Shown here in pieces: positions 30,878 through 64,000 of a DNA stretch of 64,000 nt. The notes under the pieces are model-generated. The model did no database searches and had not been told where the DNA came from. It saw only the letters and a list, made by a program, of their open reading frames with translations. The number at the start of each line of letters is the position of its first letter. Position 1 is the stretch's first letter. The translations under genes and the position numbers were made by a program. Origin of the DNA: a virus; the IMG/VR virus record IMGVR_UViG_3300045988_161343. The stretch is one strand, 5' to 3'.

Positions 30878-30905
30878 AATGAGGAGGAAATTAATCCTCC
30901 TCATT
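30878..30905. terminator. hairpin between the tape-measure gene and the next tail gene
   Basis: aatgaggaggaaattaatcctcctcatt, then RBS and ATG of next gene. Confidence 0.4.
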
Positions 30906-40212: not shown

Positions 40213-40256
40213 AAAATAGCTCCTTTCTCTCATTATAAATTTCTATATATATAAAG

Positions 40257-40289
40257 AAAAGGCGAGAGGAACAAAGCCTCTCGCCTTTT
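40257..40289. terminator. rho-independent terminator upstream of the tape-measure gene (bidirectional)
   Basis: aaaaggcgagaggaacaaagcctctcgcctttt. Confidence 0.6.
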
Positions 40290-48720: not shown

Positions 48721-48736
48721 TTTTCTTCTCTCCTTT

Positions 48737-49514: not shown

Positions 49515-49562
49515 TAGGTTTTCCTCCTTAAAAATTTATTATTCCATAGTTTTCGCAACATC

Positions 49563-51106: not shown

Positions 51107-51119
51107 CTATAAATCCTCC

Positions 51120-52811: not shown

Positions 52812-52828
52812 ACTTCACCTTCTTTCAA

Positions 52829-53185
52829 TTAATATCCAGCTTTTCGCATTATATAATCATAAGAAATTAAATTTTCTTCTGTATAAGGAATTTCTATTAA
52901 ATGTAAATCATGTAAAGCACAGAATCTACGTTTTTGATTATCATTATATTGCTATTGATATAATCCACGTTTTCCGCCAAATTTATTACTAGCTTCATAA
53001 TGCTATTTCCCTTGATATTCAATTAAAAAATCAATATTATTATCATCATCAAATATGACAAAATCAAAACGTAAAGGACGACCATTATGTGTTTTTAAAT
53101 CTGGAAATATATATTCCATCTTAAAATTCAGGCCGGCTTCCTCTAAGATTTCTCTAATCTTAATCTCCGCACGACTGGCATCCAT
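52829..53185 (-). mobile_element. small PD-(D/E)xK nuclease, DUF559/Vsr-like (about 118 aa, 2 TAG), free-standing endonuclease candidate between terL and portal
   Basis: ORF 53003..53185 extended through TAG; FDFVIFDDDNNIDFLIEYQGK-TAG-H fits D..E.K nuclease core. Confidence 0.45.
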
Positions 53186-53273
53186 ATATTAAGTCTCCTT
53201 TCTTATCTACAAATAAATTCCTCTTATTATTCTTTTAAAAATTAATTTAAAAGAATAATAAGAGTTGCCCGGC

Positions 53274-55024
53274 TTAATTCATAAACATCCAATCAGCAGC
53301 CCGGAATTTTTTCTTCTTTTTATCTTCTTCTACTTTTTTTATATAATATAATCCATACTCTAATGCAGAGAATTTATCTTTTTTAATACTTTTATTAGCT
53401 TGTTTTAAAATTATATTTAAACCTTCATTTTCTTCACGCAGATTCATAATCTCTTCACGCAATGAAGTAGTTAAACTGAATGGTCTTAAATAATCAGATC
53501 GCGCTTCTGTGGTCATATTCTAACCCACTTTAGTAGTTAATAATTTCTATTTAGCAGTTCGTTCATCAATTAAAAATTTAATCTTACCAGAATTTAATAC
53601 TGACTAAGTAATACTATGTGCTTCAGTATTAATTGGTGCATTAGCTTTCATTAAGTATAAAACATCTAATTCTGTACTATTGGTTTTATATTTTTTATAT
53701 TCTTGAACTGCATCATCCTGAGTTCCACCATAAACTCCAAAATCAGGAATTACTTCAGAAGTTTCAGGATTAATCTATGGCTTAACCATAAAATCTACTA
53801 AACCAACACCAAGTCCATTAGCATCTATTACAATTCTGCGAGCTTTATATTTATAATATAATTTTTTAAGTTTAATAGCCTAATCTTCAAAATGTGTATC
53901 ATTCATAGTGTAAATATTAACTAAACTTTTAATTGGCTCACCATGCGGTTGTGGTGTTACTTTAAATATACAAACAACAGTATCGCATCCTTTGCGGCCT
54001 ACATCAACGCTTAATACATAATAAGATAATTTACTTGAACGGCCAGAAGCTTCATACTCAGGCTAATTCAATATTCTATTTCTATTAAATATTTCGGCAT
54101 TAAAGAAAGCATCTTCAACAGTACCAGACCAGATTGATTCATATTCACGTTCAAAAGAAGCTTCATTATAAGTTCCTTCATTTTTCTGGTCAGTAATAAA
54201 TGTTTTTTGCTGTAATCCGACAGCAACAGGAGTTCGCCAAGTTCCGCCTAATACCATACATCTATCAGGCTATGTAATCATACGAACCAATAAACCAATT
54301 AATCTATCATAAGGATAAGTATTTTTATAGCCAGCAGTAGTAATATAAATCTATGATTTATTTACTGCTTCTTCTTCATGAGTTGTACCATCTTTAGCTC
54401 TACGAGGAATAGCCATAACTGGTATAATAACTTCACGCAAAATCTAATCATCAATACCTACACATTCTTCCATTAGACCGCCATGACGACGCTGACCACG
54501 AGTACTTTCTCTCGCAGCTAAGTTATCAAGGACAGAGCCATTCTTAAATACATAACGTACTTTATCTTTACTCTCTTGGCTCTTACCTCGACCCCAATCA
54601 ATTTCACGTTTAAAGCTCGGTATTAAATCACAAATTTCATTAACTTTGTCATGTAGAATACTTGCGCCTTGTTCTTTACCTCCAGAAGTAACAAATAAAT
54701 GAACACCAGGATAAAGAATACATCTAACCATTAATGCCATAACTGATAAGAATGATTTAGAATAAGCACGAGGGAAAACTGCATAAACATATTGATAGCG
54801 CATTACACATCTTAAAAAAACACGCTAATAGAAGAAAAATTTAAATTCTCCTTCTTTCTATTCTGTACGTGTTCCTCGTACTAAAAAATCAACAAATAAA
54901 TCTGGATATTCGCGCCAAAAGGCAGTGTATTTACGAATGACTGGCATTACGGCATTAATACGTTCTTCAGAAAGACCTATTTTTTTTCGGCTTGTAGATA
55001 GGTCAAGTAAATCTTGTAACGCCA
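53274..55024 (-). CDS. terminase large subunit (about 583 aa, about 9 TAG)
   Basis: ATG overlaps upstream TGA; one phase links ORFs 54444..54803, 54063..54257, 53274..53516; nuclease-domain motif LSVDVGRKGCDTVVCIF. Confidence 0.7.
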
Positions 55025-56240
55025 TTAATCTTCTCTATCAGAGAAAGCATCTATATCTAACTCTGTCTCATTATCTAAAAATTCACTAAAGTCTTCAATA
55101 TCTTTATCTTCTAAAGTTTTTTCAATGTCTTCAATAGACATATCAACATCATCAACAATTGTATCTTCGACGTTTTCTTTAGCCTATTCATCTTCTTTAG
55201 CGTTTTGTTTTAATGCCTAATCAATCATATTGCCAAGATTAGTTTCTCGTTCAATTAAAGTACGGGTATATTTTTGCATATCTTTAATTGTAAAATCTAC
55301 TTTATCATTTGGAGTATCAATATAATATCTTTCGATATAGCCTTGTTTCTCACACATTTCTATTAATTCACCAACAGAGTCAATGAAGTCGCCAGATTCT
55401 TCTTTATTCTAGGCAGCAGTAAATTTGCCCGATTTCATTAAAGAATCATACATTTTAATCATCTTTTGAGCGCCGTCTACATCACCTATATCTAATAACT
55501 AATTAGATTTTAATGATGTCTTACAGGCAAGTTTTAATGTATCAATATGACCCGCAGACTGAATATCGTAAGACTGCATCATTTCATTAAATAACTGCTC
55601 TAAGCGCACCCATTCATCAGGGCTATAACCTTTTCCCCATTTTAAATAAAGATACCGTTTATCTTCGTCTGTCAACTCTGCACCTAAATCAGGAACATCA
55701 AAATCTAATTTATCTTTAAAATAATCTTCTGCAGAATTCCCAAAATCTAGGGGAGGAGGGGCAGGAGGAGGCGGTTCTTTTAATTCTTCTGATGGCAAAG
55801 CAAATGAAGCACGTTGAATGGCCATAGTAATATCTTGAACATCATATCCCTATTGCTTCATTGTTTCTTCTATTTTTTTATTTTGTAAGTCTTGCAAGAA
55901 TTGACTATCTTTCCATCTATAATCTTTCCATTGATTTAATTTCATTGCAGAGAGATAGCGACCTAATATTGTCATTCCAGTGACTTTCGCTCTATCCTTC
56001 GCAAATTTACCCATTAACTAATTCCACTAATCAGGAATGTAAGGAACATCACATTCTTGCAATATCCATAGATAAGTATCCGGATTCCAATTATCTACAT
56101 GCATTGTTATACATTTTTTACATTTTGGTAATTTACCATCATTAGGATATTTATCTAAATTATTAGATGTATAAAACTAAGTTCCATCCATAGTTTTATT
56201 ACATTTTTCACAGTAATATTGTTTACCTTCGCTGGACAAT
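55010..56240 (-). CDS. putative terminase small subunit / DNA-packaging protein with N-terminal Zn-ribbon (about 410 aa, about 8 TAG)
   Basis: Frame from about 56240 (CEKCNKT...CKKC Zn-ribbon) through ORF 55499..55825 to TGA overlapping terL start; assignment by position only. Confidence 0.35.
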
Positions 56241-56257
56241 CAATATTTCTCCTTTCT

Positions 56258-57323
56258 TTAGGATTTCATTTTTTCTTTACGAGAACTATTTCGGCATTTT
56301 TTGCATATACTATAAAATCCATCTTTACTTGTTTTATTATAGGAAAAATATTTATTGTGAGCCAATTTAATTTGCCCACATCGACTGCACTTTTTGTATT
56401 TACCTTTTTTTTGAGTTGTGTAATACCATTCTAAATATTTATCAACAGCTTTATCAGCAATAAGCTTTGGTATTTTATTGCGAAATAAACTTGATATATA
56501 TTCTAAACTGTGGGTAATATTAAATTCTTCTTGTAAAATTTTTTGAATTTCTATATTTTGTAATCCATCAATTTTACATTCTACAATACGCATTAACATA
56601 GGATAATCAGCCAAGGCTTCATCGCAAATATTTTCAAAATCATAAATAAGATACCAAGTATCATCTTCAAAACGATCCCAACTATCTTCTTTTAATCGAG
56701 AATAGTTACATAAGATACAAGAGCAAATTTCAGGAATCATTAATGAAATTCCTTCTGGAATTGGATATCCATCATCATCAAATATTTTTACATCTTCATC
56801 TAATTTAATTTTATATTTAGATCGTGTAAGCTTTACTGGTACTATTGGTTTCCGATAAGCATTTTTAATAACATATTGGTCTTTGCGCATTTCTATTAAT
56901 GCTTTTTTTATAGTGAAAGCATCTTTACCACTCACTACTTTCATTTTTGCTTCCCAAGTTGTAATAGCGTCTTTTAATTGTTTTAAGCTAGGAATTTCTT
57001 CTAAATCTTTTTTTGTAATTGTAACTTTTGGCTAAAATATCATATTTTTATCACTATTAATTAAATTATATATACCATCTTCACCATTCTCTAACTGGGA
57101 AACAAGTCCTTCGAAAGAAGTTTCACGTTTATTAACTGTCATTAATCTATTATCAGTTAATATTTTCTTTTCTTTTTTTTCTTGTTTCTCCATACATAGA
57201 ATTAGATAATCTGCGAGGATTTCTAAATACTTTTCATTAGGATTTGGATTTTCCTCTAAAATTTTTTTTACTAATTCATTTCGTTCTTCAGGAGTTTCAA
57301 GAGTATAATCTAATTTTATCAAG
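56258..57323 (-). CDS. first gene of the minus-strand block: protein with C-terminal Zn-ribbon (about 355 aa, 1 TAG)
   Basis: TTG start after RBS ggaggt; fragment 57032..57379 joins ORF 56258..56944 through TAG; CSRCGQ...CKKC. Confidence 0.4.
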
Positions 57324-57350
57324 ATTAATACCTCCAATCCTTCTAAAAAA

Positions 57351-57379
57351 ATTATAACACAAAAAATTTGCAAAGTCAA
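57351..57379 (-). promoter_or_regulatory. sigma70-like promoter for the minus-strand morphogenesis block (TTGACT-17-TATAAT on minus strand)
   Basis: Reverse complement of 57351-57379 reads ttgactttgcaaattttttgtgttataat. Confidence 0.5.
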
Positions 57380-57433
57380 CCATGGCCAAAAATTTTTATA
57401 GTATTTAGTAAAAAAATTATGTAAAATGTAAAA

Positions 57434-57462
57434 TTGACAATTATAAAAATTTTTTATATAAT
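57434..57462 (+). promoter_or_regulatory. consensus sigma70 promoter TTGACA-17-TATAAT for plus-strand genes
   Basis: ttgacaattataaaaattttttatataat, about 30 nt upstream of ATG 57492. Confidence 0.5.
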
Positions 57463-57491
57463 ATTTATATAAAATTAAAGGAGATAATTTT

Positions 57492-57647
57492 ATGAGAAAA
57501 CCTCGTGGTATTTTAGGTAGTATGGCTTCTAAAGCTAAACGTAGAGCAACTAATAGTGCAACTAGAGCTATTTATCAGCTTATGTGGGGTGAAAACCCTA
57601 AACAGCAAGGAGCTTATAATCCTATTAAAGAACGTAAGAAAAAGTAA
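57492..57647 (+). CDS. small basic (Lys/Arg-rich) protein, 51 aa
   Basis: RBS aaaggagataattttATG; intact ORF. Confidence 0.45.
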   Translation: MRKPRGILGSMASKAKRRATNSATRAIYQLMWGENPKQQGAYNPIKERKKK

Positions 57648-57682
57648 ATATATTATATTTAAAAATTGAAGGAAGTGATTTA

Positions 57683-58120
57683 ATGAAGTTTGTCCATGGG
57701 CTTCTTTTAGGTACTGGGGCGGCATTTGGTTTAGGATGTGCAGCCAGATTTATTTATGATAAAATTATTGAAGCAAAAATCTATAAAGATTATACTAAAG
57801 CGCTTGAAGATTTTATGAATTTTAAAAGCGATAAAAAATATATTGAATATAATAAAGGGCTAGAAGAAAAATATATTGGGCCTGGAATAGTCCATGTCAT
57901 TAAAAATAAAAAAGATTTAATGTCTATTGATTTATCTAAATACGAAGAAGAGGGTGATCCAATCGGCATTACTCTTGGTTCTAAAATTGTAGATAAGGAA
58001 GACCAATATATTATACCTGAAGTAGAAGTTTATAAATTTAAAAATGGATATACTAATTATCGATTCCATCAAGAACGAGGAGTAATTGATCCTAATGAAG
58101 GCATTGTTCCTTTTGACTAA
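57683..58120 (+). CDS. membrane-anchored protein (145 aa)
   Basis: RBS gaaggaagtgatttaATG; N-terminal hydrophobic GLLLGTGAAFGLGCAA. Confidence 0.5.
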   Translation: MKFVHGLLLGTGAAFGLGCAARFIYDKIIEAKIYKDYTKALEDFMNFKSDKKYIEYNKGLEEKYIGPGIVHVIKNKKDLMSIDLSKYEEEGDPIGITLGSKIVDKEDQYIIPEVEVYKFKNGYTNYRFHQERGVIDPNEGIVPFD

Positions 58121-58225
58121 TTTATGAAAAAATTTTTGACATGAGATAAAAAATTTTGTAAAATAAATTATAAAATTTGTGGGATGGCTCGCACTCTCCC
58201 AATTAAAAAGAAAGGAGTGAGTTGA

Positions 58226-58453
58226 ATGCTGAAAACAGCTTATACAAGAAAACTCGATACAGTTGGACGTTTAATGATTCCTTCTAAGCTTCGTGAAGAA
58301 TTGCATATGGTAAATGGTCATAATTATGAATTTTATATTGACGAAGTAGATGGTAAAACTTTTTTATGTATTGAATGTCCTGAAGCTAGTGATGCCGTAG
58401 CTCTTGCAAAAGAAACGTTGGAATAGAATGGGTATCGAGTAATTAAGGAATAA
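58226..58453 (+). CDS. AbrB/SpoVT-family (swapped-hairpin) transcriptional regulator (about 75 aa, 1 TAG near C-terminus)
   Basis: RKLDTVGRLMIPSKLREEL matches the AbrB N-domain GRVVIP.ELR signature; RBS gaaaggagtgagttgaATG; ORF 58226..58426 reads through TAG to TAA. Confidence 0.65.
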
Positions 58454-58459
58454 AATTAA

Positions 58460-58499
58460 AGCGGGAAAATATTTTCCCGCTTATTTTTTTTTATTTTTT
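58460..58499 (+). terminator. strong rho-independent terminator
   Basis: agcgggaaaatattttcccgct followed by T-rich run. Confidence 0.7.
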
Positions 58500-58627
58500 G
58501 AAATATCGTTATTTAAAATTTAAATTATTTTCCGTTTTCTGAAATTAAAAATGAGTTTAGAAATTATTTTGCCAGGTAGGAAGATTTATCCATTTTTTCC
58601 ATTTTTTTTACACGAAACCCTGCCCCC

Positions 58628-58692
58628 CCGCTTCACTTGACTAAAGTGTTAAAGTCTATTGTCTTACTTTACTTGAGTGAAGCAAGTTAGAT
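58628..58692. repeat. inverted repeat gcttcacttgac...cttgagtgaagc flanked by C-runs
   Basis: Read directly; sits at the compositional boundary. Confidence 0.3.
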
Positions 58693-58737
58693 ACGACTAA
58701 CCCCCAAAAAAAATATTTCGATTTTTGAAAAAAAGTA

Positions 58738-58771
58738 GTTGACATTTTCGGGCATAGGTGCTATTCTATAA
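58738..58771 (+). promoter_or_regulatory. sigma70-like promoter copy 1 (TTGACA then tgcTATTCTATAAT) with A-tract upstream element
   Basis: gtagttgacattttcgggcataggtgctattctataat. Confidence 0.4.
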
Positions 58772-58848
58772 TCAGAAATTGACCACAGGACAACGCAAGC
58801 AAGGCAAAACGCCAAGCGAAAAAAATTCAAGAAATTTTGAAAAAAGTT

Positions 58849-58877
58849 CTTGACAAGCCGGAAGTCCTATGGTACAA
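58849..58877 (+). promoter_or_regulatory. sigma70 promoter copy 2: TTGACA-17-TGgTACAAT (extended -10) with similar A-tract upstream element
   Basis: gttcttgacaagccggaagtcctatggtacaat; upstream attttgaaaaaagttc repeats the element before copy 1. Confidence 0.5.
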
Positions 58878-58883
58878 TGAGTA

Positions 58884-59138
58884 CAACGAAGCAAGGGAAA
58901 CACAAACAACGCAAGCCCTTGCAAGTGTAGTAGAATGACCGGAAACAGGCCGAAGCACCGAGCGGCGTTGAACATTGACAAGTGAATCTAAGCCGAGCGT
59001 CTGCACCACATAGCGGACGCAATGGTAGAGCATAGAAAGTGTGGTGCAAGCGGTAGGGCAATCCAACGCCTACGGCAGATAGTAACACGGATAGGTGACA
59101 ACTAACAGTCGAATAATATGTAAAGGATTGGTAAAATC
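58884..59138 (+). ncRNA. about 255-nt GC-rich structured leader or candidate ncRNA, no plus-strand ORF
   Basis: Hairpins gcaaggg...cccttgc and tgcaccaca...tgtggtgca; repeated acaacgcaagc motifs; only antisense spurious ORFs in the track. Confidence 0.25.
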
Positions 59139-59273
59139 ATGGTATATGCAATTAAAACAAGCGAACAGGACAAACAGAAAGCAATCAAGATAGAGTTAGC
59201 AGAGCAAGCTGACGATATCGTAAAATATGTCAAACAGTACCATATGTAAGGCAATAGCTTCGACTATGATGGT

Positions 59274-59543
59274 ATGCTGGACAAGTATCATGAGTATGCG
59301 GCGAAGAATATTCAGCAATGGGATAACCTTACATGGGCTATTCATAGTGCTGAATATGACTTGGAGCATACCGACTATAATATGGATATGGAAGCCGGCA
59401 ACCCATGTGTCGCATATGAGGCCGCATATGAGAAGCTGACGGACTTGCAAGATGAGGCCGAGGAATGGGCGGATATCTTTGAGCATATGCTCGAAGACTT
59501 CTTCTACAAACTGCACGACTTGCTATATGGTGAAGAAGCATAA
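59274..59543 (+). CDS. hypothetical acidic protein (89 aa)
   Basis: Intact ORF, TAA stop. Confidence 0.5.
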   Translation: MLDKYHEYAAKNIQQWDNLTWAIHSAEYDLEHTDYNMDMEAGNPCVAYEAAYEKLTDLQDEAEEWADIFEHMLEDFFYKLHDLLYGEEA

Positions 59544-59599
59544 GCTTCTTCACCCATCCACCAACCAACCAACTAACAATATATGGAGGTATAATTATT

Positions 59600-59935
59600 A
59601 TGACCAGAACCAATAGAAGAGCTATCCGTAAGGACGCTATGCAGAACACTATCATCCGCATTAACAATGCCATGGGCAAGGTCAATTTCTCTGACCCTAA
59701 TGGCAAGGCCACCTTTCATAAACTGATGGACCAGAAAGACTATATCGCACAACAGATCGCCGAAGCAAGCTACACCGAATACTCGATGAAAAGTGACCAT
59801 CGGGAGCTGAAGCGTATTTTCGCTCATATGGATGAAGGTGGTTGTGCTGACTGGGTCAAGTGGGATATCGAGCAGCTGGCAGCAAGTCGGCGTCGCTGGT
59901 CTATCGCAACAAGCAAGCAAATCTGGTTGGGCTAA
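59600..59935 (+). CDS. hypothetical protein (111 aa)
   Basis: RBS tatggaggtataattattATG; intact ORF. Confidence 0.5.
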   Translation: MTRTNRRAIRKDAMQNTIIRINNAMGKVNFSDPNGKATFHKLMDQKDYIAQQIAEASYTEYSMKSDHRELKRIFAHMDEGGCADWVKWDIEQLAASRRRWSIATSKQIWLG

Positions 59936-59968
59936 TTGCCCAACCAGACCACAGAAAGGGGATAACAT

Positions 59969-60158
59969 TATGTACACTATCTATAATCACACGACTGGCC
60001 AGTATGGCATTATCTACCATAGCCTTATCGCAGCACGGTCTATGGCTCATGCTTACAGCCTATGGGCAAAGAATGACAGAGATGTCATTGATATGCAAAC
60101 TGGTGAAGTCATGAGCACATTCGAGAAAGGCAAAGAAACTTACAGAGCCAAGGGTTAA
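59969..60158 (+). CDS. hypothetical small protein (63 aa)
   Basis: RBS aaaggggataacattATG inside ORF 59832..60158; followed by hairpin ccaagggttaaaacccttgg. Confidence 0.45.
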
Positions 60159-60192
60159 AACCCTTGGCTCCCAATAGAAAGGATGATACAAT

Positions 60193-60492
60193 ATGGCAAC
60201 TGCACGAAATCCCTATGCTGAAATCCGTTTTCTTGATAAGAACAATGTTCAAACTGATTATTGCAGATGGCAATTATCCAGCACATTCAACTGCCCTTGG
60301 CAGCCTGCCTTCTACCGCGAACTTGAAGAAAAGCTCTACATCATGCAGGAACTGGAAATCGTAGGGTTTGGCAGTCGGTCTGCGGTATTTACTTCTGGTC
60401 TGCTAACTACCTACCATTTTACAAGCTATCAGATTGTACAGGCAATCGAGCATACAGCCGACCACCTGACGTTAGTGGTGAGGGACATTTGA
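60193..60492 (+). CDS. hypothetical protein (99 aa)
   Basis: RBS aaaggatgatacaatATG; TGA stop. Confidence 0.5.
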   Translation: MATARNPYAEIRFLDKNNVQTDYCRWQLSSTFNCPWQPAFYRELEEKLYIMQELEIVGFGSRSAVFTSGLLTTYHFTSYQIVQAIEHTADHLTLVVRDI

Positions 60493-60560
60493 GTCCCTCT
60501 ACCGCTTTCTGACAATTCAACCGAGCACATGAATCCAAAAGTCGAAAGGAAAATTTCAAA

Positions 60561-60713
60561 ATGAAAAATCTCAAACTCGCGTTAACATTATCTGGCATAA
60601 TTATTATGCTCTGGATTTCTGTTTCATTTTGTCAGGTGGTCCGCCATAATAATCCTGCTGGCGGCAGACCTGAATACAGTAGTTGGAATTTCTTCGTGAT
60701 GATGGAGGATTAA
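60561..60713 (+). CDS. small membrane protein (50 aa)
   Basis: RBS gaaaggaaaatttcaaaATG; LTLSGIIIMLWISVSF hydrophobic. Confidence 0.4.
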   Translation: MKNLKLALTLSGIIIMLWISVSFCQVVRHNNPAGGRPEYSSWNFFVMMED

Positions 60714-60714
60714 A

Positions 60715-60900
60715 ATGAAAAATCAACATAGCGAAGTCATTAAAATGTTCAATGACCATACTCAGGAGATTATAGAGGAGGCGTTCGATGACCCTATTGA
60801 CGCCGACTACTATGAATACCATTTGGATTTACTTGAGATCCACTACCAGAGATACAGCCGCGGCGAGCTGCTGTACGAAGAAAATAAACCGGAGGGCTGA
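60715..60900 (+). CDS. hypothetical acidic protein (61 aa)
   Basis: Intact ORF; TGA stop inside terminator hairpin ggagggctgaaaagccctcc (60891-60910). Confidence 0.5.
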   Translation: MKNQHSEVIKMFNDHTQEIIEEAFDDPIDADYYEYHLDLLEIHYQRYSRGELLYEENKPEG

Positions 60901-60933
60901 AAAGCCCTCCACCAATAGAAAGGAATTGATAAT

Positions 60934-61245
60934 ATGATAAACATTCGCACAATCAAGAAACTGGCTGACGGCGATGGTCTGACACTCAAAAATGGAAAAA
61001 TCAAGAGGTACAAGAGTGGCTATCAGGTAGCTACTAATGGCGTCGAGGTCATCAGTCCTGAAATGGCAATACAGGCAGTTCGAGAATTCAAAGGCACTTG
61101 CGGCATTTGGCTTGAAAATGGCAGATACTACATTGACATTTCTAAACGAGTCAGCACAAAACGCGAAGCAGTTGAAATTGGCAAGAAATGTAATCAACTT
61201 TCAATTTACAGATGGCGTGGAAATCCTACATGTCTTTACATTTAA
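60934..61245 (+). CDS. hypothetical protein, paralog A (103 aa)
   Basis: MINIRTIKKLADGDGLTLKNGKIKRYKSGYQV...; RBS aaaggaattgataatATG. Confidence 0.5.
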   Translation: MINIRTIKKLADGDGLTLKNGKIKRYKSGYQVATNGVEVISPEMAIQAVREFKGTCGIWLENGRYYIDISKRVSTKREAVEIGKKCNQLSIYRWRGNPTCLYI

Positions 61246-61267
61246 TATTTGAGAGGAGAAATAAAAA

Positions 61268-61588
61268 ATGATTAACGTGAGAACTATTCGGAAAATGCAG
61301 GACGGCGATACCCTGAACCTTAAGAACGGCAATATCAAAAAGTACAAGGGCGGTTTTCAAGTGAATACCGCCACAGTTATCCTTGACACTCCAGAAAAAG
61401 CAATCGAATGGATGAAACGTTTGACTCGGAATTTTGGAAAGAGCTGCCAGATTCGTTTCAAAGATGAAAAGTATTATGTCAGCCTGACCGAGCATACCTA
61501 CACGCGGCGGCAGGCAAGAGAAGTTGCAAGCGAACATCTTCAGGGCATTATTTACGATTGGAATAATCTGGCACACCAGGCAGTTTAA
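61268..61588 (+). CDS. hypothetical protein, paralog B (106 aa)
   Basis: MINVRTIRKMQDGDTLNLKNGNIKKYKGGFQV...; same N-terminal architecture as the gene 23 nt upstream. Confidence 0.5.
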   Translation: MINVRTIRKMQDGDTLNLKNGNIKKYKGGFQVNTATVILDTPEKAIEWMKRLTRNFGKSCQIRFKDEKYYVSLTEHTYTRRQAREVASEHLQGIIYDWNNLAHQAV

Positions 61589-61591
61589 TCC

Positions 61592-61734
61592 CGAAATCCC
61601 AGGAGTTGGTAATCCCAATTCCTGGGATGAATATTTATTCATTTTCTTTAATTCATTATCCCTTTAATCAAATGAATTGCCTCGCCGGGGCGTGGCGAAA
61701 TTGATATATCCGCAGCAAGCTCGCCACGCCCCGC
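61592..61734 (+). terminator. two tandem hairpin terminators (tcccagga...tcctggga and gccggggcgtggcga...tcgccacgccccgc)
   Basis: Read directly downstream of paralog B. Confidence 0.5.
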
Positions 61735-61892
61735 ATTTTCCATTTAATACCAATTCTGAATATTTCCAGCCAAATTCTACCATATCTGGTATTATGTTCC
61801 ATTTCCCATATCCTACCAGCTTATGGTATATAATTCCATACTAAATGTTTCCAGAATCTTTGTGCATATTGACGAATAAAAAAATTTGACTT

Positions 61893-61926
61893 TTCTATTG
61901 ACATTTACCATAGGGTGTGCTATTAT
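61893..61926 (+). promoter_or_regulatory. sigma70-like promoter TTGACA-17-TATTAT(ATAAT)
   Basis: ttgacatttaccatagggtgtgctattatataat. Confidence 0.45.
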
Positions 61927-61974
61927 ATAATTGTTCCAAGGGAACAGATAAAAAATGAAATGGAGATACAAAAA

Positions 61975-62139
61975 ATGACTACTGAAAAAATCGCTGAACT
62001 GCTGAACGAATGGATTGATAATGACCATGATTTCAGTACGGAATCCATCAATGATTTCTGCAATACATATGCCCGCAATTATGACGAGTATATGGGTCTG
62101 TGGTACACAGTCTGCGGTTGCATCGAGGAGGAGGGTTAA
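61975..62139 (+). CDS. hypothetical small protein (about 54 aa; alternative start 61960)
   Basis: RBS ggagatacaaaaaATG inside ORF 61915..62139. Confidence 0.4.
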   Translation: MTTEKIAELLNEWIDNDHDFSTESINDFCNTYARNYDEYMGLWYTVCGCIEEEG

Positions 62140-62143
62140 CATC

Positions 62144-62284
62144 ATGTATGAGTTCGAAATGTATAATGTCAACACGAAAGAAATTGAAACTGCATATGGC
62201 TACTCCCTAGCAGACGCTAGGGAGAGAAGCCCAAAGTATAACAGCCGTGAATGGGTTTGTCTAATGTCTACTTATATTGATTAA
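62144..62284 (+). CDS. hypothetical small protein (46 aa)
   Basis: RBS gaggagggttaacatcATG; TAA stop. Confidence 0.4.
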   Translation: MYEFEMYNVNTKEIETAYGYSLADARERSPKYNSREWVCLMSTYID

Positions 62285-62486
62285 GGAGGAAATGAAAATG
62301 AAAATGTCTGAATTTGCAAATAACATTCTTGATAAGAAAATGCTGATTGAACTTATCAAACACCTTCCTTCTTGTAAAGCCTGTCCTTTCCAGAAGGCTT
62401 GTGAGAAAGCGGTTATTGATAATCCGGATGAATCTTGCGAACAGTTTCTGAACCGTTGGATTGAAGATGATAGGAACGAGGGCTGA
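62277..62486 (+). CDS. hypothetical Cys-containing small protein (69 aa)
   Basis: RBS ttaaggaggaaatgaaaATG; CKACPFQKAC; TGA stop inside hairpin gagggctgaaaagccctc (62479-62496). Confidence 0.45.
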   Translation: MIKEEMKMKMSEFANNILDKKMLIELIKHLPSCKACPFQKACEKAVIDNPDESCEQFLNRWIEDDRNEG

Positions 62487-62516
62487 AAAGCCCTCTTCCA
62501 AAAGGAGGAAATTAAA

Positions 62517-62840
62517 ATGGATATTACAAAATTGCAAGTCAGTCAGCATATCAAGGAAGACCGCTTGGATAGATATGTTGAAATTCAAATGAACACCGGA
62601 CTTGGCGAACCTGTTGCAAAATTCAAATATGAGGACAAATGGCAGATTATTACAAGTACAGGAGTGATTTTGATTACAGATAGCCGGATGGAATTTCTAA
62701 TCACATTGTATTATGTCAACATGGACAAAGCAACTGCAATTTTCAGACGAAATGGGCAGATAAAAATGCCGAAAGTAGTATATGACGCAATTCAGAAGAA
62801 CATGGCGAAAAAGCTAATCAAACATAGAAAGGAAAAATAA
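62517..62840 (+). CDS. hypothetical protein (107 aa)
   Basis: RBS aaaaggaggaaattaaaATG. Confidence 0.5.
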   Translation: MDITKLQVSQHIKEDRLDRYVEIQMNTGLGEPVAKFKYEDKWQIITSTGVILITDSRMEFLITLYYVNMDKATAIFRRNGQIKMPKVVYDAIQKNMAKKLIKHRKEK

Positions 62841-62842
62841 AA

Positions 62843-63070
62843 ATGAAAATCGAATATGAAAAGCCCAGACAGGTTATCCACTTCGCAGCTCTGGATGTTG
62901 GAACTGTATTCCGCGACCCGTCCGATGATATAATTTATATGAAAACTGAATATATTGATAATGACGGTGATGAAATCAATTCGATTGATTTAGCCACTGG
63001 AAACCTTGAGTGTCTTCATAATGACGCAAAAGTCTATCCCGTAGATGCTACATTATATGTTAAGGAGTGA
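62843..63070 (+). CDS. hypothetical protein (75 aa)
   Basis: Intact ORF directly after previous stop. Confidence 0.5.
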   Translation: MKIEYEKPRQVIHFAALDVGTVFRDPSDDIIYMKTEYIDNDGDEINSIDLATGNLECLHNDAKVYPVDATLYVKE

Positions 63071-63076
63071 TAAAAA

Positions 63077-63289
63077 ATGGAAGGATATAAAACATGGAAG
63101 TATCTGGTAATTAACTTCCTCCCTACAAAAGACTGGCCGCGACTGTTTTTTGTAGAAGCTTCGTGTCGCTCGGAAGCTGAATCTTATATTCGGAAGCACT
63201 GTGGGCAAGACTATATGTTGGTGGATAAATACGATGAATTTGTCGCAAAAATTCTTGATTATCCCGAAATTCCGCATTATAAATTCTGA
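63077..63289 (+). CDS. hypothetical protein (70 aa)
   Basis: RBS ttaaggagtgataaaaaATG. Confidence 0.5.
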   Translation: MEGYKTWKYLVINFLPTKDWPRLFFVEASCRSEAESYIRKHCGQDYMLVDKYDEFVAKILDYPEIPHYKF

Positions 63290-63299
63290 TTTCTATTTG

Positions 63300-63328
63300 A
63301 ATTTCCTCCCATATTTTGGGAGGAAATT
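63300..63328 (+). terminator. rho-independent terminator
   Basis: aatttcctcccatattttgggaggaaatt followed by T-rich tract. Confidence 0.55.
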
Positions 63329-63617
63329 TCTATTTGAAAATTATAGAAAAAAATAATATAATTTTTATATAAAAAAATAATTTTTATTTCTATTTTAATT
63401 TTATAATTTTCCAGTTAAAAAATCAAATGCGGCAAATTTGGCAATCCCATAATTTAGAAGGGGGATTCAAGCCGGTCGCGATCCAACGCCGCGACCGGAA
63501 TTTCGCGAATTAAAGTGCTAACGTAAAAAAGTTTTCCAAATCCTTCCAGCCCAGCCCTTGGAAAATTTTCCCAAAACATTTGTGTAATTTGACGAAAGCA
63601 TTTTCCATTTTATGTCT

Positions 63618-63652
63618 TGACATTTGGCTTGCCCTGTGTTATACTATAAACA
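63618..63652 (+). promoter_or_regulatory. sigma70-like promoter TTGACA-17-TATACT; a 9-bp stem hairpin ccggtcgcg...cgcgaccgg lies upstream at 63471-63498
   Basis: ttgacatttggcttgccctgtgttatactat. Confidence 0.45.
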
Positions 63653-63678
63653 ATCCAAGAGGAAAGGAACTGATTAAA

Positions 63679-63846
63679 ATGACTGACCGCGAAGCCCTCG
63701 ACCAAATTCTGGAACATCTGAATGGAAATTTGCAATCCATTGTCAAGGATGAAGCAACATATGTTGAAATTGAAAATTACTCCTATGGCGAAGATATTGT
63801 ATTTGAATTTGATGAAAATGGAAATATTTTATCAGTCTATTCTTGA
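63679..63846 (+). CDS. hypothetical small acidic protein (55 aa)
   Basis: RBS gaggaaaggaactgattaaaATG inside ORF 63580..63846. Confidence 0.45.
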   Translation: MTDREALDQILEHLNGNLQSIVKDEATYVEIENYSYGEDIVFEFDENGNILSVYS

Positions 63847-63860
63847 AAGGGGAATATAAA

Positions 63861-64000
63861 ATGAAAATCTATATGGCTGGGGCGTTCTTCCGCCCTGAAA
63901 CAAAATCAAGAATTGATTCATATGCGGCTGATTTCCGGCGGCTTGGGCATGATGTATATGTGCCGCAAGAACATACAGTCCCGAACGCTTGGGATATGTC
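63861..64000 (+). CDS. nucleoside 2-deoxyribosyltransferase-like protein, N-terminal part (runs off window)
   Basis: MKIYMAGAFFRPE start resembles the MKIYLAGP(L)F signature of that family; RBS aaaggggaatataaaATG. Confidence 0.35.
   Translation, partial: MKIYMAGAFFRPETKSRIDSYAADFRRLGHDVYVPQEHTVPNAWDM

What the first reader, a model, noticed from the sequence alone, without database searches (positions are those of the whole stretch)
58560..64000. Abrupt compositional switch to a GC-richer block of small plus-strand genes
Downstream of the AbrB-gene terminator, GC rises from about 28-30% to about 45-50%. The block holds several consensus TTGACA-17-TATAAT promoters, repeated hairpin terminators (ggagggctgaaaagccctcc occurs twice), and about 14 plus-strand ORFs of 46-111 aa, none with in-frame TAG and all ending TAA/TGA. 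It could be an early host-takeover or anti-defence region, a horizontally acquired island, or a chimeric assembly join.
Basis: seen in the sequence. Interest (0 to 1): 0.6.

Follow-up and report, generated by a model that had tools for sequence, protein, structure and literature searches.

The report
Host-code early module, recoded phage
The GC-richer block is the start of the early-gene region of a large gut phage that reads TAG as glutamine in its late genes; these early genes avoid TAG and use GC-richer codons, and the whole phage family shares this layout, so it is neither an assembly error nor a recent foreign island.

Summary
The compositional step is real. GC changes at about 58,610 from 0.29 to 0.42, peaking at 0.47, not 45-50%. 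It is almost purely a third-codon-position effect: GC3 is 0.46 in the block and 0.16 in late and replication genes, while GC2 is identical. The window is a TAG-recoded, SPbeta/phAss-like siphophage of Firmicutes. The block is the promoter-proximal end of a plus-strand region of at least 31 kb in a close relative. Of that region, 32 genes were read gene by gene: they have no in-frame TAG and no TAG stop. The same junction occurs in independent assemblies, including a 93%-identical strain. The GC3/TAG dichotomy holds in 32 relatives with terminase identity 64-98%, and in published phAss-1. A chimera or a recent island is therefore excluded. The block has conserved sigma-A-type promoters, strong ribosome-binding sites and fast-evolving small ORFs of unknown function exchanged as cassettes. 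Two RNA features have no described counterpart: a roughly 250-nt covarying leader with pseudoknots, and hairpins whose loop holds the stop codon. Best reading: an early module translatable by the unmodified host. Selection on codons is inferred, not shown. The host, expression timing and the phage's tRNAs remain unknown.

The parts
58459..58482 (+). Intrinsic terminator (10-bp hairpin plus T-run) ending the AbrB/MraZ-like gene. It is the last feature of the AT-rich side.
   Evidence: sequence
58601..58738 (.). Conserved non-coding element at the GC change point (58,610): C-runs flanking an imperfect inverted repeat (GCTTCACTTGA...TACTTGAGTGAAGC), then an A/T-rich tract resembling an UP element. 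Function unknown.
58739..58767 (+). Promoter-like site P1 (TTGACA-17-TATTCT, TG-extended)
   Evidence: conserved in the alignment
58850..58878 (+). Promoter P2 (TTGACA-17-TACAAT with TG). The -35 hexamer is invariant and the -10 is nearly so (TA[C/T]AAT, with TG retained) in all 9 relatives aligned. The same CTTGACAA-N14-TG(C/G)TA(C/T)AAT form recurs four times along the early region of L001.
58885..59138 (+). Structured leader RNA.
- Hairpin H1: 58891-58897 / 58916-58922.
- Pseudoknot X/Y: 58939-58942 / 58958-58961 and 58949-58952 / 58963-58966.
- Core hairpin P-a: 58997-59004 / 59013-59020.
- Pseudoknot helix P-k: 59005-59011 / 59039-59045.
- Hairpin P-b: 59050-59057 / 59069-59076. Its loop, CAATCC, is complementary to the SD of the first ORF.
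   Evidence: no Rfam family; covariation; covariance-model search
59139..59543 (+). First early gene. It is a 134-135 aa acidic four-helix protein in all relatives. In this window it is split into 36 aa and 89 aa by a CAA>TAA change at 59247-59249.
59600..59935 (+). ORF of 111 aa, basic (pI 9.7), GC3 0.59, no family hit
59970..60158 (+). ORF of 62 aa
60193..60492 (+). ORF of 99 aa
60561..60900 (+). Two overlapping-coupled ORFs: 50 aa (hydrophobic N-terminal half) and 61 aa (acidic). This cassette is absent or replaced in L001, L003 and L006.
60934..61245 (+). ORF of 103 aa, basic. It belongs to a family of at least 488 unannotated proteins. The AlphaFold2 model is confident (pLDDT 95), and the alpha/beta fold has no PDB match but resembles uncharacterised phage proteins.
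61268..61588 (+). ORF of 106 aa, a paralogue (41% identity) of the 103-aa ORF. It is missing in L004, L005 and L007.
61596..61628 (+). Intrinsic terminator (14-bp stem plus T-rich tail) ending transcription unit 1
61686..61733 (+). GC-rich 18-nt inverted repeat (hairpin) upstream of the second promoter cassette
   Evidence: I20
61843..61926 (+). Promoter cassette 2 (TTGACA-17-TATTAT, TG). Its upstream part is 76% identical to 63563-63596.
   Evidence: D11
61975..63289 (+). Six ORFs of 54, 46, 62, 107, 75 and 70 aa (transcription unit 2). Only the 75-aa ORF hits PHROG families, all of unknown function.
63300..63328 (+). Hairpin (12 bp) followed by TCTATTTG. Probable terminator of transcription unit 2.
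   Evidence: read from the sequence; not listed by the scan
63472..63498 (+). 9-bp hairpin with the loop ATCCAACGC, the same loop motif as leader hairpin P-b. The stem covaries in L124.
63563..63645 (+). Promoter cassette 3 (TTGACA-17-TATACT, TG)
63679..64000 (+). ORF of 55 aa (acidic), then from 63861 the start of a nucleoside 2-deoxyribosyltransferase-like gene that continues beyond the window
   Evidence: PF05014 in L001 and L002
59529..59554 (+). Stop-in-loop hairpin 1 (11 bp; TAA at 59541-59543 in the loop)
59922..59948 (+). Stop-in-loop hairpin 2 (11 bp; TAA at 59933-59935)
60145..60170 (+). Stop-in-loop hairpin 3 (11 bp; TAA at 60156-60158), followed by CCAATAGAAAGGA
60480..60499 (+). 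Stop-in-loop hairpin 4 (7 bp; TGA at 60490-60492)
60891..60910 (+). Stop-in-loop hairpin 5 (7-8 bp; TGA at 60898-60900), followed by CCAATAGAAAGGA.
62478..62495 (+). Stop-in-loop hairpin 6 (6-7 bp; TGA at 62484-62486). Near-copy of hairpin 5.

Best explanation
SHOWN
- The window belongs to a large (about 145 kb) AT-rich siphophage of Firmicutes, related to SPbeta, Geobacillus E3 and phAss-1. In its structural and replication genes TAG is a sense codon, about half of all Gln codons.
- At 58.6 kb the divergent late operon and three AT-rich small genes end. A plus-strand region of at least 31 kb begins there in a close relative.
- The 32 genes of that region that were read gene by gene work under either code: they have no in-frame TAG and no TAG stop.
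- The flagged block is the promoter-proximal 5.4 kb of that region. It holds three transcription units with conserved sigma-A-type extended -10 promoters, strong SDs and 16 small, fast-evolving ORFs of unknown function that are exchanged as cassettes.
- The GC excess is a synonymous-site effect. GC3 is highest next to the first promoters and declines with distance.
- The same two-compartment layout is found across the phage family.

INFERRED
- These are immediate-early genes transcribed by host RNA polymerase.
- They are translated by the unmodified host apparatus, before the phage switches decoding.
- Selection therefore keeps them free of TAG and in codons that the host decodes well.
- Late genes drift to AT-ending codons and TAG, because they are read only after the phage has changed the decoding environment, through a suppressor tRNA and possibly a phage tRNA set as in phAss-1.
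- The proteins probably act on host or defence functions, by analogy with other phage early regions.
- The structured leader and the stop-in-loop hairpins are cis-acting RNA elements of the early transcripts. Possible roles are translation control, processive read-through, or stabilisation and processing of cistron 3' ends. Which role applies is not established.
For: Code
- Open reading frames of at least 150 codons cover 57 kb when TAG is read as sense, against 17 kb under the standard code.
- The 15 late genes scored carry 254 in-frame TAG in 11,479 codons. The 16 block genes carry 0 in 1,186 codons, and the next 16 genes carry 0 in 1,995.
- The 32 early stop codons are 20 TAA, 12 TGA and 0 TAG.

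Composition
- GC1/GC2/GC3 are 0.48/0.32/0.46 in the block, 0.41/0.32/0.17 in late genes and 0.45/0.31/0.16 in replication genes.
- C-ending and G-ending codons both rise about three-fold.

Expression link
- GC3 falls along the region: 0.42-0.59 in the first six ORFs, a mean of 0.37 in the next 16 genes, and 0.24-0.36 at 25-31 kb.
- Within the late operon, GC3 correlates negatively with the TAG share of Gln codons (rho -0.46, p 0.018). The capsid-region genes have GC3 0.29-0.31 and 0-1 TAG.
- An AT-rich islet inside the early region of L124 carries two opposite-strand genes with GC3 0.16-0.17 and 5 and 9 in-frame TAG.

The junction is real and old
- Independent contigs share it.
- In 32 distinct relatives the early side has GC3 0.39-0.76 and TAG mostly 0-3.8 per 1000 codons (two loci reach 5.2 and 9.5). 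The late side has GC3 0.19-0.34 and 4-18 per 1000 codons. GC1+2 are equal.
- Orthologues of the 103-aa gene have GC3 of 0.40-0.54, 0.56-0.67 or 0.68-0.78 depending on clade.
- phAss-1 shows the same coupling: GC3 0.37 in ORFs with TAG against 0.53 without. It carries 36 tRNAs, including 3 with anticodon CTA.

Early-region anatomy
- Promoters.
- Cassette mosaicism, with breakpoints at the repeated hairpin-plus-CCAATAGAAAGGA elements.
- Block proteins are 68-100% identical among strains in which the neighbouring AbrB-like and 145-aa proteins are 94-100% identical.
- Third codon positions are variable at 47% of sites in the block and 21% in late genes.

Literature
- Early genes in the standard code and late genes in the alternative code are reported for recoded phages (10.1101/2021.08.26.457843).
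- Early and late genes differ in codon usage in other phages (PMC5683454).
Against: - No expression data exist, so 'early' rests on anatomy alone.
- The host is unknown, so 'host-like codons' is untested. The terminase is found only in MAG bins of inconsistent taxonomy.
- No tRNA of any kind, and no suppressor, was found in the window or in about 100 kb sampled from close relatives. About 45 kb of the genome remains unseen.
- The three genes just upstream (57492-58426) also have sigma-A-type promoters and no in-frame TAG, yet their GC3 is 0.17. Being TAG-free and host-transcribed therefore does not by itself give high GC3.
- C-ending and G-ending codons rise equally, and non-coding DNA in the block is also GC-richer: 0.39 against 0.20-0.29. 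That fits a region-wide compositional process as well as codon selection.
- No block protein has an assignable function.
Confidence: 0.62

Rival explanations
1. A region-wide compositional process, not codon selection. The early region is a recombination hot spot, and its GC is raised at all weakly constrained sites. The cause would be GC-biased gene conversion and/or a steady inflow of cassettes from GC-richer phages of the same hosts, such as phAss-like genomes of about 44% GC. TAG-freeness would be a separate constraint.
For: - C-ending and G-ending codons are raised equally: 0.36 and 0.38, against 0.12 and 0.13.
- Non-coding GC in the block is 0.39, against 0.20-0.29 elsewhere.
- Cassette gains and losses have breakpoints at repeated intergenic elements.
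- Third positions are twice as variable as in late genes.
- The AT-rich, TAG-free genes at 57492-58426 show that early-type promoters do not require high GC3.
Against: - GC3 and TAG avoidance also co-vary among late genes and peak in the capsid genes, where no cassette exchange is seen.
- GC3 declines smoothly with distance from the first promoters over 31 kb.
- Orthologues keep clade-specific GC3.
- Most of the non-coding GC excess lies in RNA elements whose stems are under selection.
- The polymorphism test could not separate the two models.
Confidence: 0.2
2. DNA-level adaptation to the host transcription machinery. An AT-rich (28% GC) genome may be silenced by host proteins that bind AT-rich foreign DNA, or may fire spurious sigma-A promoters. 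The part that must be read precisely by host RNA polymerase at the start of infection would then be kept at host-like GC.
For: - The GC rise includes non-coding DNA.
- It starts exactly at the first strong early promoters.
- GC falls with distance from them.
Against: - GC2 is unchanged and GC1 barely changed. The effect is concentrated at synonymous sites, as expected for any weak pressure.
- The AT-rich genes at 57492-58426 have the best sigma-A-type promoters in the window.
- No silencer is known for the unidentified host.
Confidence: 0.1
3. A recently acquired foreign island (a moron, satellite or host fragment) inserted next to the late operon.
For: - The boundary is sharp, at 58,610.
- The genes have no assignable function.
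- The gene content is mosaic.
Against: - The same compartment sits at the same place in 32 relatives, down to 64% terminase identity.
- Orthologues are shared across clades.
- The region is at least 31 kb long and collinear in close relatives.
- No integrase, transposase or flanking repeats were seen.
- There is no net GC>AT decay signal: 102 W>S against 99 S>W singletons. This test is weak.
Confidence: 0.04
4. A chimeric assembly join between two unrelated genomes.
For: - The composition switches abruptly.
- Several public contigs of relatives end 3.2-4.2 kb upstream of the terminase gene, which is near the junction.
Against: - The junction is present in assemblies from different samples (SRR15410134, ERR636359, ERZ1304314) and in six IMG/VR contigs.
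- A 93%-identical strain gives one collinear alignment across it.
- Contig breaks there are as expected at a strain-variable region.
Confidence: 0.01

Closest known systems
Standard-code early compartments of stop-codon-recoded phages (crAss-like, Lak, Jade, Sapphire, Agate, Garnet, Topaz; Borges et al., 10.1101/2021.08.26.457843)
   Same: - Late structural and lysis genes carry in-frame reassigned stops.
- Part of the genome stays compatible with the host's standard code and is proposed to be expressed first.
- Here, late genes have 22 TAG per 1000 codons and 32 early genes have none.
   Different: - Replication genes are recoded too.
- The code-compatible compartment also avoids TAG as a stop.
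- It differs three-fold in GC3, with a gradient, and this holds family-wide.
- The passages of that paper that mention GC content describe GC only between genomes and at prophage borders.
- No suppressor tRNA has been found so far.
phAss-1 / proposed Phassvirus and its wider 'code 15' group (PMC10607447)
   Same: - TAG>Gln recoding.
- A tape-measure-like ORF of about 3,130-3,150 aa, a DNA polymerase III alpha subunit and an anaerobic ribonucleotide reductase.
- A terminase that is 42% identical.
- The same coupling of low GC3 with TAG use.
   Different: - phAss-1 has 44.5% GC overall and 36 tRNAs, including 3 Sup-CTA. This phage has about 30% GC, and no tRNA was found in the parts sampled.
- No DNA similarity was found.
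- The block proteins were never compared with phAss-1.
- The paper does not discuss codon usage or intragenomic GC.
Early / host-takeover regions of virulent phages (SPO1 host-takeover module, T5 pre-early region, T7 class I genes; from my own knowledge)
   Same: - A cluster of strong host-sigma promoters in front of many small ORFs with strong ribosome-binding sites.
- High turnover of gene content.
- Several very acidic small proteins (pI 4.1-4.4).
   Different: - No sequence or fold similarity to any characterised takeover or anti-defence protein.
- The position relative to the genome ends is unknown.
- Expression timing is unmeasured.
PeSL mobile regulatory cassettes of T4-type hyperplastic regions (promoter-early plus stem-loop; from my own knowledge)
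   Same: - Repeated short regulatory elements containing a stem-loop flank small ORFs.
- They coincide with the breakpoints of cassette exchange.
   Different: - Here most elements are a hairpin plus an SD, without a promoter.
- The hairpin encloses the stop codon of the upstream gene.
- Its stem covaries even where the proteins are only 36-40% identical.
Cis-acting leader RNAs of operons: riboswitches, and processive antitermination RNAs such as HK022 put and Bacillus EAR (from my own knowledge)
   Same: A conserved, pseudoknotted RNA lies directly downstream of an early promoter and upstream of a long multi-gene transcript with many internal hairpins.
   Different: - No match to any Rfam family, even at E<=10.
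- No ligand or protein partner is known.
- No terminator lies between the leader and the first ORF.
- The element is restricted to one sub-clade.
Early-versus-late codon-usage differences in phages (PMC5683454, listed)
   Same: Genes expressed at different stages differ in synonymous codon use.
   Different: - The magnitude is much larger: GC3 0.46 against 0.16 here, and up to 0.76 against 0.29 in relative L064.
- The difference is coupled to a genetic-code difference.

Membership tests
TAG>Gln (code 15) recoded phage with a standard-code-compatible early compartment | Many in-frame TAG codons in structural or late genes that restore long ORFs when read as sense | tested here: met
   For example, the 3,129-aa ORF at 30901-40287 has 114 TAG, and TAG makes up about 50% of Gln codons in late genes.
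TAG>Gln (code 15) recoded phage with a standard-code-compatible early compartment | A contiguous set of genes without in-frame TAG | tested here: met
   There are 0 TAG in 3,181 codons of 32 genes. The region extends at least 31 kb in L124 and L194.
TAG>Gln (code 15) recoded phage with a standard-code-compatible early compartment | A phage-encoded suppressor tRNA (anticodon CTA) or other code-change machinery | tested here: inconclusive
   ARAGORN found no tRNA in the window or in about 100 kb sampled from close relatives. It does detect the CTA tRNAs of phAss-1. About 45 kb of the genome was not sampled.
TAG>Gln (code 15) recoded phage with a standard-code-compatible early compartment | The host uses the standard code | not testable with these tools
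   The host is not identified.
Phage early / host-takeover gene region | A cluster of strong host-sigma-factor promoters | tested here: met
   There are four sites with a perfect -35, a 17-nt spacer and a TG-extended -10. P2 keeps an invariant -35 and a near-invariant -10 in 9 relatives.
Phage early / host-takeover gene region | Many small ORFs with strong ribosome-binding sites and no virion or replication homology | tested here: met
Phage early / host-takeover gene region | Expression in the first minutes of infection | not testable with these tools
   This needs RNA-seq of infected cells.
Phage early / host-takeover gene region | Products that inhibit host or defence functions | tested here: inconclusive
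   There are no informative hits in Pfam, PHROGs or NCBIfam. Two confident AlphaFold2 models have no specific structural match.
Horizontally acquired genomic island | Patchy presence among close relatives | tested here: not met
   the compartment is present in every relative that covers the position.
Horizontally acquired genomic island | Mobility genes or flanking direct repeats | tested here: not met
   The only mobility gene seen is an HNH homing endonuclease, inserted in L001 and L003 and absent from the window.
Rho-independent (intrinsic) terminators, for the repeated hairpins | A G+C-rich hairpin | tested here: met
   7-11 bp stems with 5-7 GC pairs
Rho-independent (intrinsic) terminators, for the repeated hairpins | A run of T immediately after the hairpin | tested here: not met
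   The six stop-in-loop hairpins are followed by a C/A-rich spacer and an SD. True terminators are at 58459, 61596 and probably 63300.
Any described RNA family (Rfam 15), for the leader | A covariance-model score at or near the gathering threshold | tested here: not met
   The best score is 21 bits against a gathering score of 100, to eukaryotic snoRNA/snRNA models and outside the leader core.
Assembly chimera | The junction is unique to one assembly | tested here: not met

The most novel reading that the evidence does not exclude
This phage family runs two translational 'dialects' on one chromosome.
- One is a host dialect: standard-code-safe, using GC-ending codons, and graded by distance from the immediate-early promoters.
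- The other is a phage dialect in which TAG means Gln and codons end in A or T.
- Codon usage and genetic code would then act together as a timer that locks late genes until decoding is reprogrammed.

The early transcripts would also carry two previously undescribed classes of cis-RNA elements that organise expression of the cassette array:
- a pseudoknotted leader of about 250 nt;
- cistron-terminal hairpins with the stop codon in the loop.
Probability: 0.3. Interest if true: 0.7.

Novelty: new variant of a known kind. Interest (0 to 1): 0.5.

Why it matters
Recoded phages are thought to use the genetic code as a timing device, and this locus adds three testable points.

1. The code-compatible compartment avoids TAG in both roles, as sense codon and as stop. 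That is what one expects if the meaning of TAG changes during infection.
2. The code partition comes with a three-fold, family-wide, graded difference in synonymous GC. This suggests that decoding is reprogrammed more broadly than at one codon.
   - It gives a simple sequence signature (GC3 together with TAG density) for finding early regions and code boundaries in uncultured phages.
3. The early transcripts carry conserved RNA structures with no described counterpart.

In practice, gene callers and binning tools will mishandle such genomes. One relative is binned as 'Mollicutes'.

Tried and rejected
- **DNA similarity to GenBank phages:** none, for either the block or the late region.
- **Rfam:** nothing at gathering thresholds across the window, and only noise at E<=10 over 58500-59300.
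- **Protein families:** Pfam, PHROGs and NCBIfam gave nothing informative for the block proteins, apart from PHROGs of unknown function for the 75-aa ORF.
- **Structure route, two proteins:**
- **Host identification through the terminase in species-representative genomes:** only MAG bins of inconsistent taxonomy.
- **Search for tRNA or suppressor genes:** I walked along close relatives in both directions and found none in about 100 kb.
- **Third TTGACA at 58975:** not a promoter. It has no -10, it is not conserved, and it lies inside the leader.
- **SD sequestration by the P-b loop:** the pairing is possible in most sequences but shows no compensatory change, so it is left as a hypothesis.
- **Equilibrium GC3 from singleton polymorphisms:** the early estimate was 0.47 or 0.37 depending on the strain set. 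The late estimate (0.37) is far from the observed 0.195, so the method is biased and inconclusive.
- **Contig ends near the junction as possible physical genome termini:** the ends do not coincide, and one lies in a tandem repeat. I did not pursue this.

Full report
**1. The observation**

GC rises sharply just after the terminator of the AbrB/MraZ-like gene (hairpin 58459-58482 plus a T-run).
- A two-segment likelihood fit over 55-62 kb puts the change at 58,610, from 0.289 to 0.423.
- 500-nt windows inside the block average 0.404, with a maximum of 0.472. The other 58.6 kb average 0.296 +/- 0.042, with one peak of 0.418 over the capsid genes.
GC also decays to 0.33-0.38 by 63 kb.
- I count 16 complete plus-strand ORFs of 36-111 aa and the start of a 17th. 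All have ATG starts preceded by good SD sequences. There are 10 TAA and 6 TGA stops and no in-frame TAG.
- The quoted 20-mer occurs once exactly and once with two mismatches.
- No promoter in the block is a 12/12 consensus. Four have a perfect TTGACA, a 17-nt spacer and a TG-extended -10. Six of the nine best plus-strand sites of the whole window lie in 57.4-64 kb.

**2. What the window is**

- Reading TAG as sense raises the span of long open frames from 17 kb to 57 kb. It restores a terminase, a portal, capsid genes, a 3,129-aa tape-measure-like ORF with 114 TAG, a DNA polymerase III alpha subunit and an anaerobic ribonucleotide reductase.
- The closest GenBank terminases are Geobacillus virus E3 (47%), Enterococcus phages EF1 and VRE9_4 (45%) and phAss-1 (42%), followed by SPbeta-like Bacillus phages.
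- phAss-1 is a published TAG>Gln phage with a tape measure protein of 3,149 aa and a polymerase III alpha subunit. Its predicted host is in the Clostridia (PMC10607447).
- The sigma-70/sigma-A-type promoters, the GGAGG-type SDs, and the AbrB/MazE, SASP-like and YonG-like genes nearby agree with a Firmicute host.
- The host itself could not be identified. In species-representative genomes the terminase is found only in MAG bins labelled Mollicutes, Acutalibacteraceae, Clostridium, Treponema or Bacteroidales.

**3. Nature of the GC shift**

The shift is synonymous.
- GC1/GC2/GC3 are 0.48/0.32/0.46 in the block, 0.41/0.32/0.17 in 15 late genes and 0.45/0.31/0.16 in replication genes.
- Amino-acid usage is similar.
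- Both C-ending and G-ending codons rise about three-fold. For example, Leu TTA goes from 0.66 to 0.10 and CTG from 0.01 to 0.26, and Gln CAG goes from 0.16 to 0.58.
- Non-coding DNA in the block is also GC-richer: 0.39 against 0.20-0.29. Most of it is the structured leader.
- The three genes between the late operon and the block (57492-58426) are TAG-free inside and have the best sigma-A-type promoters of the window, but their GC3 is 0.17.

**4. Extent**

- L002 is a contig 100% identical to the window that continues 7 kb further. L124 and L194 are pieces of a close relative of 144.6 kb.
- The plus-strand, TAG-free region continues at least 31.5 kb beyond the junction.
- GC3 declines from 0.42-0.59 (first six ORFs), to a mean of 0.37 (next 16 genes), to 0.24-0.36 (25-31 kb).
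- The first 32 genes have 20 TAA, 12 TGA and no TAG stops. At the TAG density of late genes (22 per 1000 codons), about 70 in-frame TAG would be expected in their 3,181 codons. None is seen.
- The compartment is therefore valid under both code 11 and code 15.
- An AT-rich islet inside it (L124 14.3-15.9 kb) carries two opposite-strand genes with GC3 0.16-0.17 and 5 and 9 in-frame TAG. Low GC3 and TAG use are thus coupled gene by gene.
- The coupling also holds inside the late operon. GC3 correlates negatively with the TAG share of Gln codons (rho -0.46, p 0.018). The presumably most highly expressed genes (47584-49535) have GC3 0.29-0.31 and 0-1 TAG.

**5. Not a chimera, not a recent island**

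- The 103-aa protein of the block is encoded on at least 10 public contigs. The six that were read come from six different samples.
  - L001, L002 and L004 reach the junction, and all three carry the AbrB-like gene followed by the block.
  - L001 is a 93%-identical strain and aligns collinearly from 50810 to 60195.
- A terminase-based scan of IMG/VR returned 77 loci from genomes of 100-200 kb.
  - In every locus that covers the position, GC steps up 3.5-7 kb upstream of the terminase gene.
  - In 32 distinct relatives with terminase identity 64-98%, the early side has GC3 0.39-0.76 and TAG mostly 0-3.8 per 1000 codons (two loci reach 5.2 and 9.5). The late side has GC3 0.19-0.34 and 4-18 TAG per 1000 codons. 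GC1+2 are equal.
- Orthologues of the 103-aa gene have GC3 of 0.40-0.54 in the window's clade, 0.56-0.67 in the 77%-terminase clade and 0.68-0.78 in L116. The high GC3 is therefore maintained in place in each lineage.
- phAss-1 shows the same coupling. Its structural region at 4-36 kb has 34-40% GC, and the rest has 43-54%. ORFs with TAG have GC3 0.37, and those without have 0.53.
  - The phAss-1 paper never mentions codon usage, and cites GC content only as a whole-genome value.
  - The passages on GC content in the Borges et al. preprint concern differences between genomes and prophage borders.

**6. Anatomy of the block**

- **Transcription unit 1.** Promoters P1 (58739) and P2 (58850) are each preceded by A-tracts. 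They are followed by a 254-nt leader, eight genes (59139-61588) and a terminator (61596-61628).
- **Transcription unit 2.** A GC hairpin (61686-61733) and a promoter cassette (61843-61926) precede six genes (61975-63289) and a hairpin with a T-rich tail (63300-63328).
- **Transcription unit 3.** A hairpin (63472-63498) and a promoter cassette (63563-63645, 76% identical to cassette 2 in its upstream part) precede genes that run beyond the window. These include a nucleoside 2-deoxyribosyltransferase-like gene.
- The same promoter form, CTTGACAA-N14-TG(C/G)TA(C/T)AAT, recurs four times in L001.
- **Gene content is mosaic among strains of 88-93% identity.**
  - L001 replaces 60196-60916.
  - L004, L005 and L007 lack the second paralogue (61247-61626).
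  - L001 and L003 carry an HNH endonuclease insertion.
  - Breakpoints fall at the repeated 'hairpin + CCAATAGAAAGGA + ATG' junctions.
- **Block proteins evolve fast.**
  - They are 68-100% identical in strains whose AbrB-like and 145-aa neighbours are 94-100% identical.
  - Their third codon positions are variable at 47% of sites, against 21% in late genes.

**7. Proteins**

- None has an informative family hit.
- Five of the 16 are very acidic (pI 4.1-4.4, net charge -9 to -19) and four are basic (pI 9.7-9.8).
- The 103-aa and 106-aa paralogues belong to a family of at least 488 unannotated metagenomic proteins.
  - The AlphaFold2 model is confident (pLDDT 95).
  - It resembles only uncharacterised phage proteins and domains (TM 0.6-0.77).
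- The first gene encodes a 134-135 aa acidic protein in all 120 homologues listed. In this window a CAA>TAA change at 59247 splits it.
  - Its model (pLDDT 86) is a four-helix bundle with non-specific matches only.
- 'Host takeover or anti-defence' is therefore an inference from position and analogy.

**8. The leader RNA (58885-59138)**

- It matches no Rfam family.
- Twenty-four distinct homologues were collected from viral and metagenome contigs.
- In the 3' core, the proposed structure is hairpin P-a, pseudoknot helix P-k, hairpin P-b and a short P-c.
  - It is 95% paired.
  - Seven pairs are changed on both sides, against 3.1 +/- 1.1 in shuffles (0 of 500 reach the observed value). At most one such pair appears when the partners are slid by 1-3 columns.
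  - P-k is 100% paired, with three covarying positions.
- In the 5' half there are three helices.
  - Hairpin H1 has nine different complementary arm pairs, for example GCAAGGG/CCCTTGC, CAAGAGGAC/GTTCTCTTG, GAAAGCGC/GCGCTTTC and CGAAACACG/CGTGTTTCG.
  - Helix Y has five variants, all fully paired: GCCG/CGGC, GCGG/CCGC, GCTG/CAGC, GTCG/CGGC and GGCG/CGCC.
  - Helix Y interleaves with helix X (CCGG/CCGG, CCAG/CTGG) as an H-type pseudoknot.
- L009 is only about 50% identical, yet it keeps P-k (GTCTAAG/CTTAGAC) and P-b (CTTGCAAG/CTTGCAAG) with entirely different sequences.
- A covariance model of the core finds the element only in the window's sub-clade and L082, and weakly in L009.
- The P-b loop (CAATCC) could pair with the SD of the first ORF (GGATTG), but no compensatory change supports this.
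- The loop motif ATCCAACGCC recurs once more in the window, again in a hairpin loop (63481). Only 0.11 occurrences are expected by chance, and that stem covaries in L124.
- The function is open. The candidates are translational control of the first gene, processive read-through of the many downstream hairpins, or transcript stabilisation.

**9. Stop-in-loop hairpins**

- Six of the 16 block ORFs end with their stop codon inside the loop of a 7-11 bp G+C-rich hairpin. This compares with 0 of 29 late ORFs and 0 of 18 replication ORFs.
- In other clades the counts are 31 of 191 early-side ORFs and 0 of 156 late-side ORFs.
- The arrangement is preserved by compensatory changes even where the proteins are only 36-40% identical:
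  - GGTGAAGAAGC/GCTTCTTCACC against CCGGAAGAGG/CCTCTTCCGG;
  - TCTGGTTGGGC/GCCCAACCAGA against GTGGTCGC/GCGACCAC;
  - AGCCAAGGGT/ACCCTTGGCT against GGGCTATGGC/GCCATAGCCT and GGGCGCA/TGCGCCC.
- The stop itself toggles between TAA and TGA and is never TAG.
- No T-run follows, so these are not canonical terminators. A C/A-rich spacer and the next SD follow instead.
- I favour a role at the RNA level: 3'-end protection or processing of individual cistrons, or tuning of termination and re-initiation. The hairpins also mark the joints at which cassettes are exchanged.

**10. Mechanism and its rivals**

- *Best-supported reading.* This is an early module that must be transcribed by host RNA polymerase and translated by the unmodified host.
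  - It is kept free of TAG in both roles and in GC-ending codons.
  - Genes read after reprogramming drift to A/T-ending codons and TAG.
- *Support.*
  - TAG is avoided both as sense codon and as stop.
  - GC3 is graded along the region.
  - GC3 and TAG use are coupled gene by gene, including within the late operon.
  - The layout is conserved across the family.
  - phAss-1 offers a precedent with a full tRNA set and three suppressor tRNAs.
- *Weak points.*
  - There are no expression data, the host is unknown, and no tRNA has been found so far.
  - The TAG-free genes at 57.5-58.4 kb are AT-rich.
  - The uniform rise of G- and C-ending codons and of non-coding GC fits GC-biased conversion, cassette inflow, or DNA-level adaptation to host transcription equally well.
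- A polymorphism-spectrum test showed no net GC>AT decay in the block (102 W>S against 99 S>W). It was unstable and biased, so it does not separate these models.

**11. Novelty**

- The kind is known: a standard-code early compartment in a recoded phage, and an early region with strong host promoters and small ORFs of unknown function.
- I did not find the following in the papers I read:
  - the three-fold, graded, family-wide GC3 partition tied to TAG use;
  - the avoidance of TAG as a stop in the early compartment;
  - the pseudoknotted leader;
  - the covarying stop-in-loop hairpins.
- I therefore class it as a new variant of a known kind, of moderate interest.

Noticed in passing
window 58885-59138: A leader RNA of about 250 nt lies between the main early promoter and the first ORF. 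It has covarying helices and two probable pseudoknots and matches no Rfam family. It was found in 24 distinct sequences of one sub-clade.
   Followed up: yes
window 59529-59554, 59922-59948, 60145-60170, 60480-60499, 60891-60910, 62478-62495: G+C-rich hairpins hold the stop codon of the upstream ORF in their loop and have no T-run after them. They are specific to early genes across the family and are preserved by compensatory changes even between proteins only 36-40% identical.
   Followed up: yes
window 59247-59249: TAA here is CAA in L004 and L005, and all 120 listed homologues are 134-135 aa. This strain therefore carries a nonsense change that splits the first early gene into 36 aa and 89 aa.
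   Followed up: partly
window 58226-58453: The AbrB/MraZ-like gene ends in TAG, with an in-frame TAA 27 nt further on. It would be 66 aa under the standard code and 75 aa once TAG is read as Gln. L001's gene call is 75 aa.
   Followed up: no
window 59061-59070 and 63481-63490; L124 about 3065-3115: The motif ATCCAACGCC occurs twice in the window, both times in a hairpin loop (0.11 occurrences expected by chance). The stem of the second hairpin covaries in L124. It may be a shared binding or pairing site.
   Followed up: partly
L124 14303-15887: An AT-rich islet inside the GC-richer early region carries two opposite-strand genes with GC3 0.16-0.17 and 5 and 9 in-frame TAG.
   Followed up: partly
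window 47584-49535 (minus strand): The probable capsid genes have the highest GC3 of the late operon (0.29-0.31) and 0-1 TAG. Across 26 late genes, GC3 and the TAG share of Gln codons correlate negatively (rho -0.46).
   Followed up: partly
window 1-64000; L124, L133, L194 and others: No tRNA gene of any kind was found in the window or in about 100 kb of close relatives. The distant relative phAss-1 has 36 tRNAs, including three with anticodon CTA, two of them directly beside its nrdD gene.
   Followed up: partly
window 58601-58738: A conserved non-coding element sits exactly at the GC change point, upstream of P1. It consists of C-runs flanking an imperfect inverted repeat. It might be an operator, an origin or a packaging-related site.
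   Followed up: no
L013, L018, L046, L063, L078, L113 (contig ends): Several public contigs of relatives end 3.2-4.2 kb upstream of the terminase gene, near the junction. L013 ends in a tandem repeat. These are probably assembly breaks at a strain-variable region, but physical genome ends were not excluded.
   Followed up: no
L113 and L119 (CAMELE01 MAG): Two different phages of this family, one with a terminase 97% identical to the window's, are binned together as an 'uncultured Mollicutes' MAG. This is probably a binning artefact caused by their low GC.
   Followed up: no
L001 12450-13055; L003 2925-3530: An HNH/NUMOD4 homing-endonuclease gene of about 25% GC is inserted in the early region of one strain lineage. 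It replaces the 55-aa ORF region of the window.
   Followed up: no
L128-L130 (phAss-1, OQ749652): The published phAss-1 genome has the same intragenomic split. Its structural region has 34-40% GC and a high TAG density, while the rest has 43-54% GC. The GenBank annotation is in the standard code and is therefore fragmented.
   Followed up: partly
window 57379 (minus strand) and 57434 (plus strand): Divergent near-consensus sigma-A-type promoters lie back to back at the head of the late operon and of the AT-rich small-gene pair. The late operon may therefore also start from a host-type promoter.
   Followed up: no
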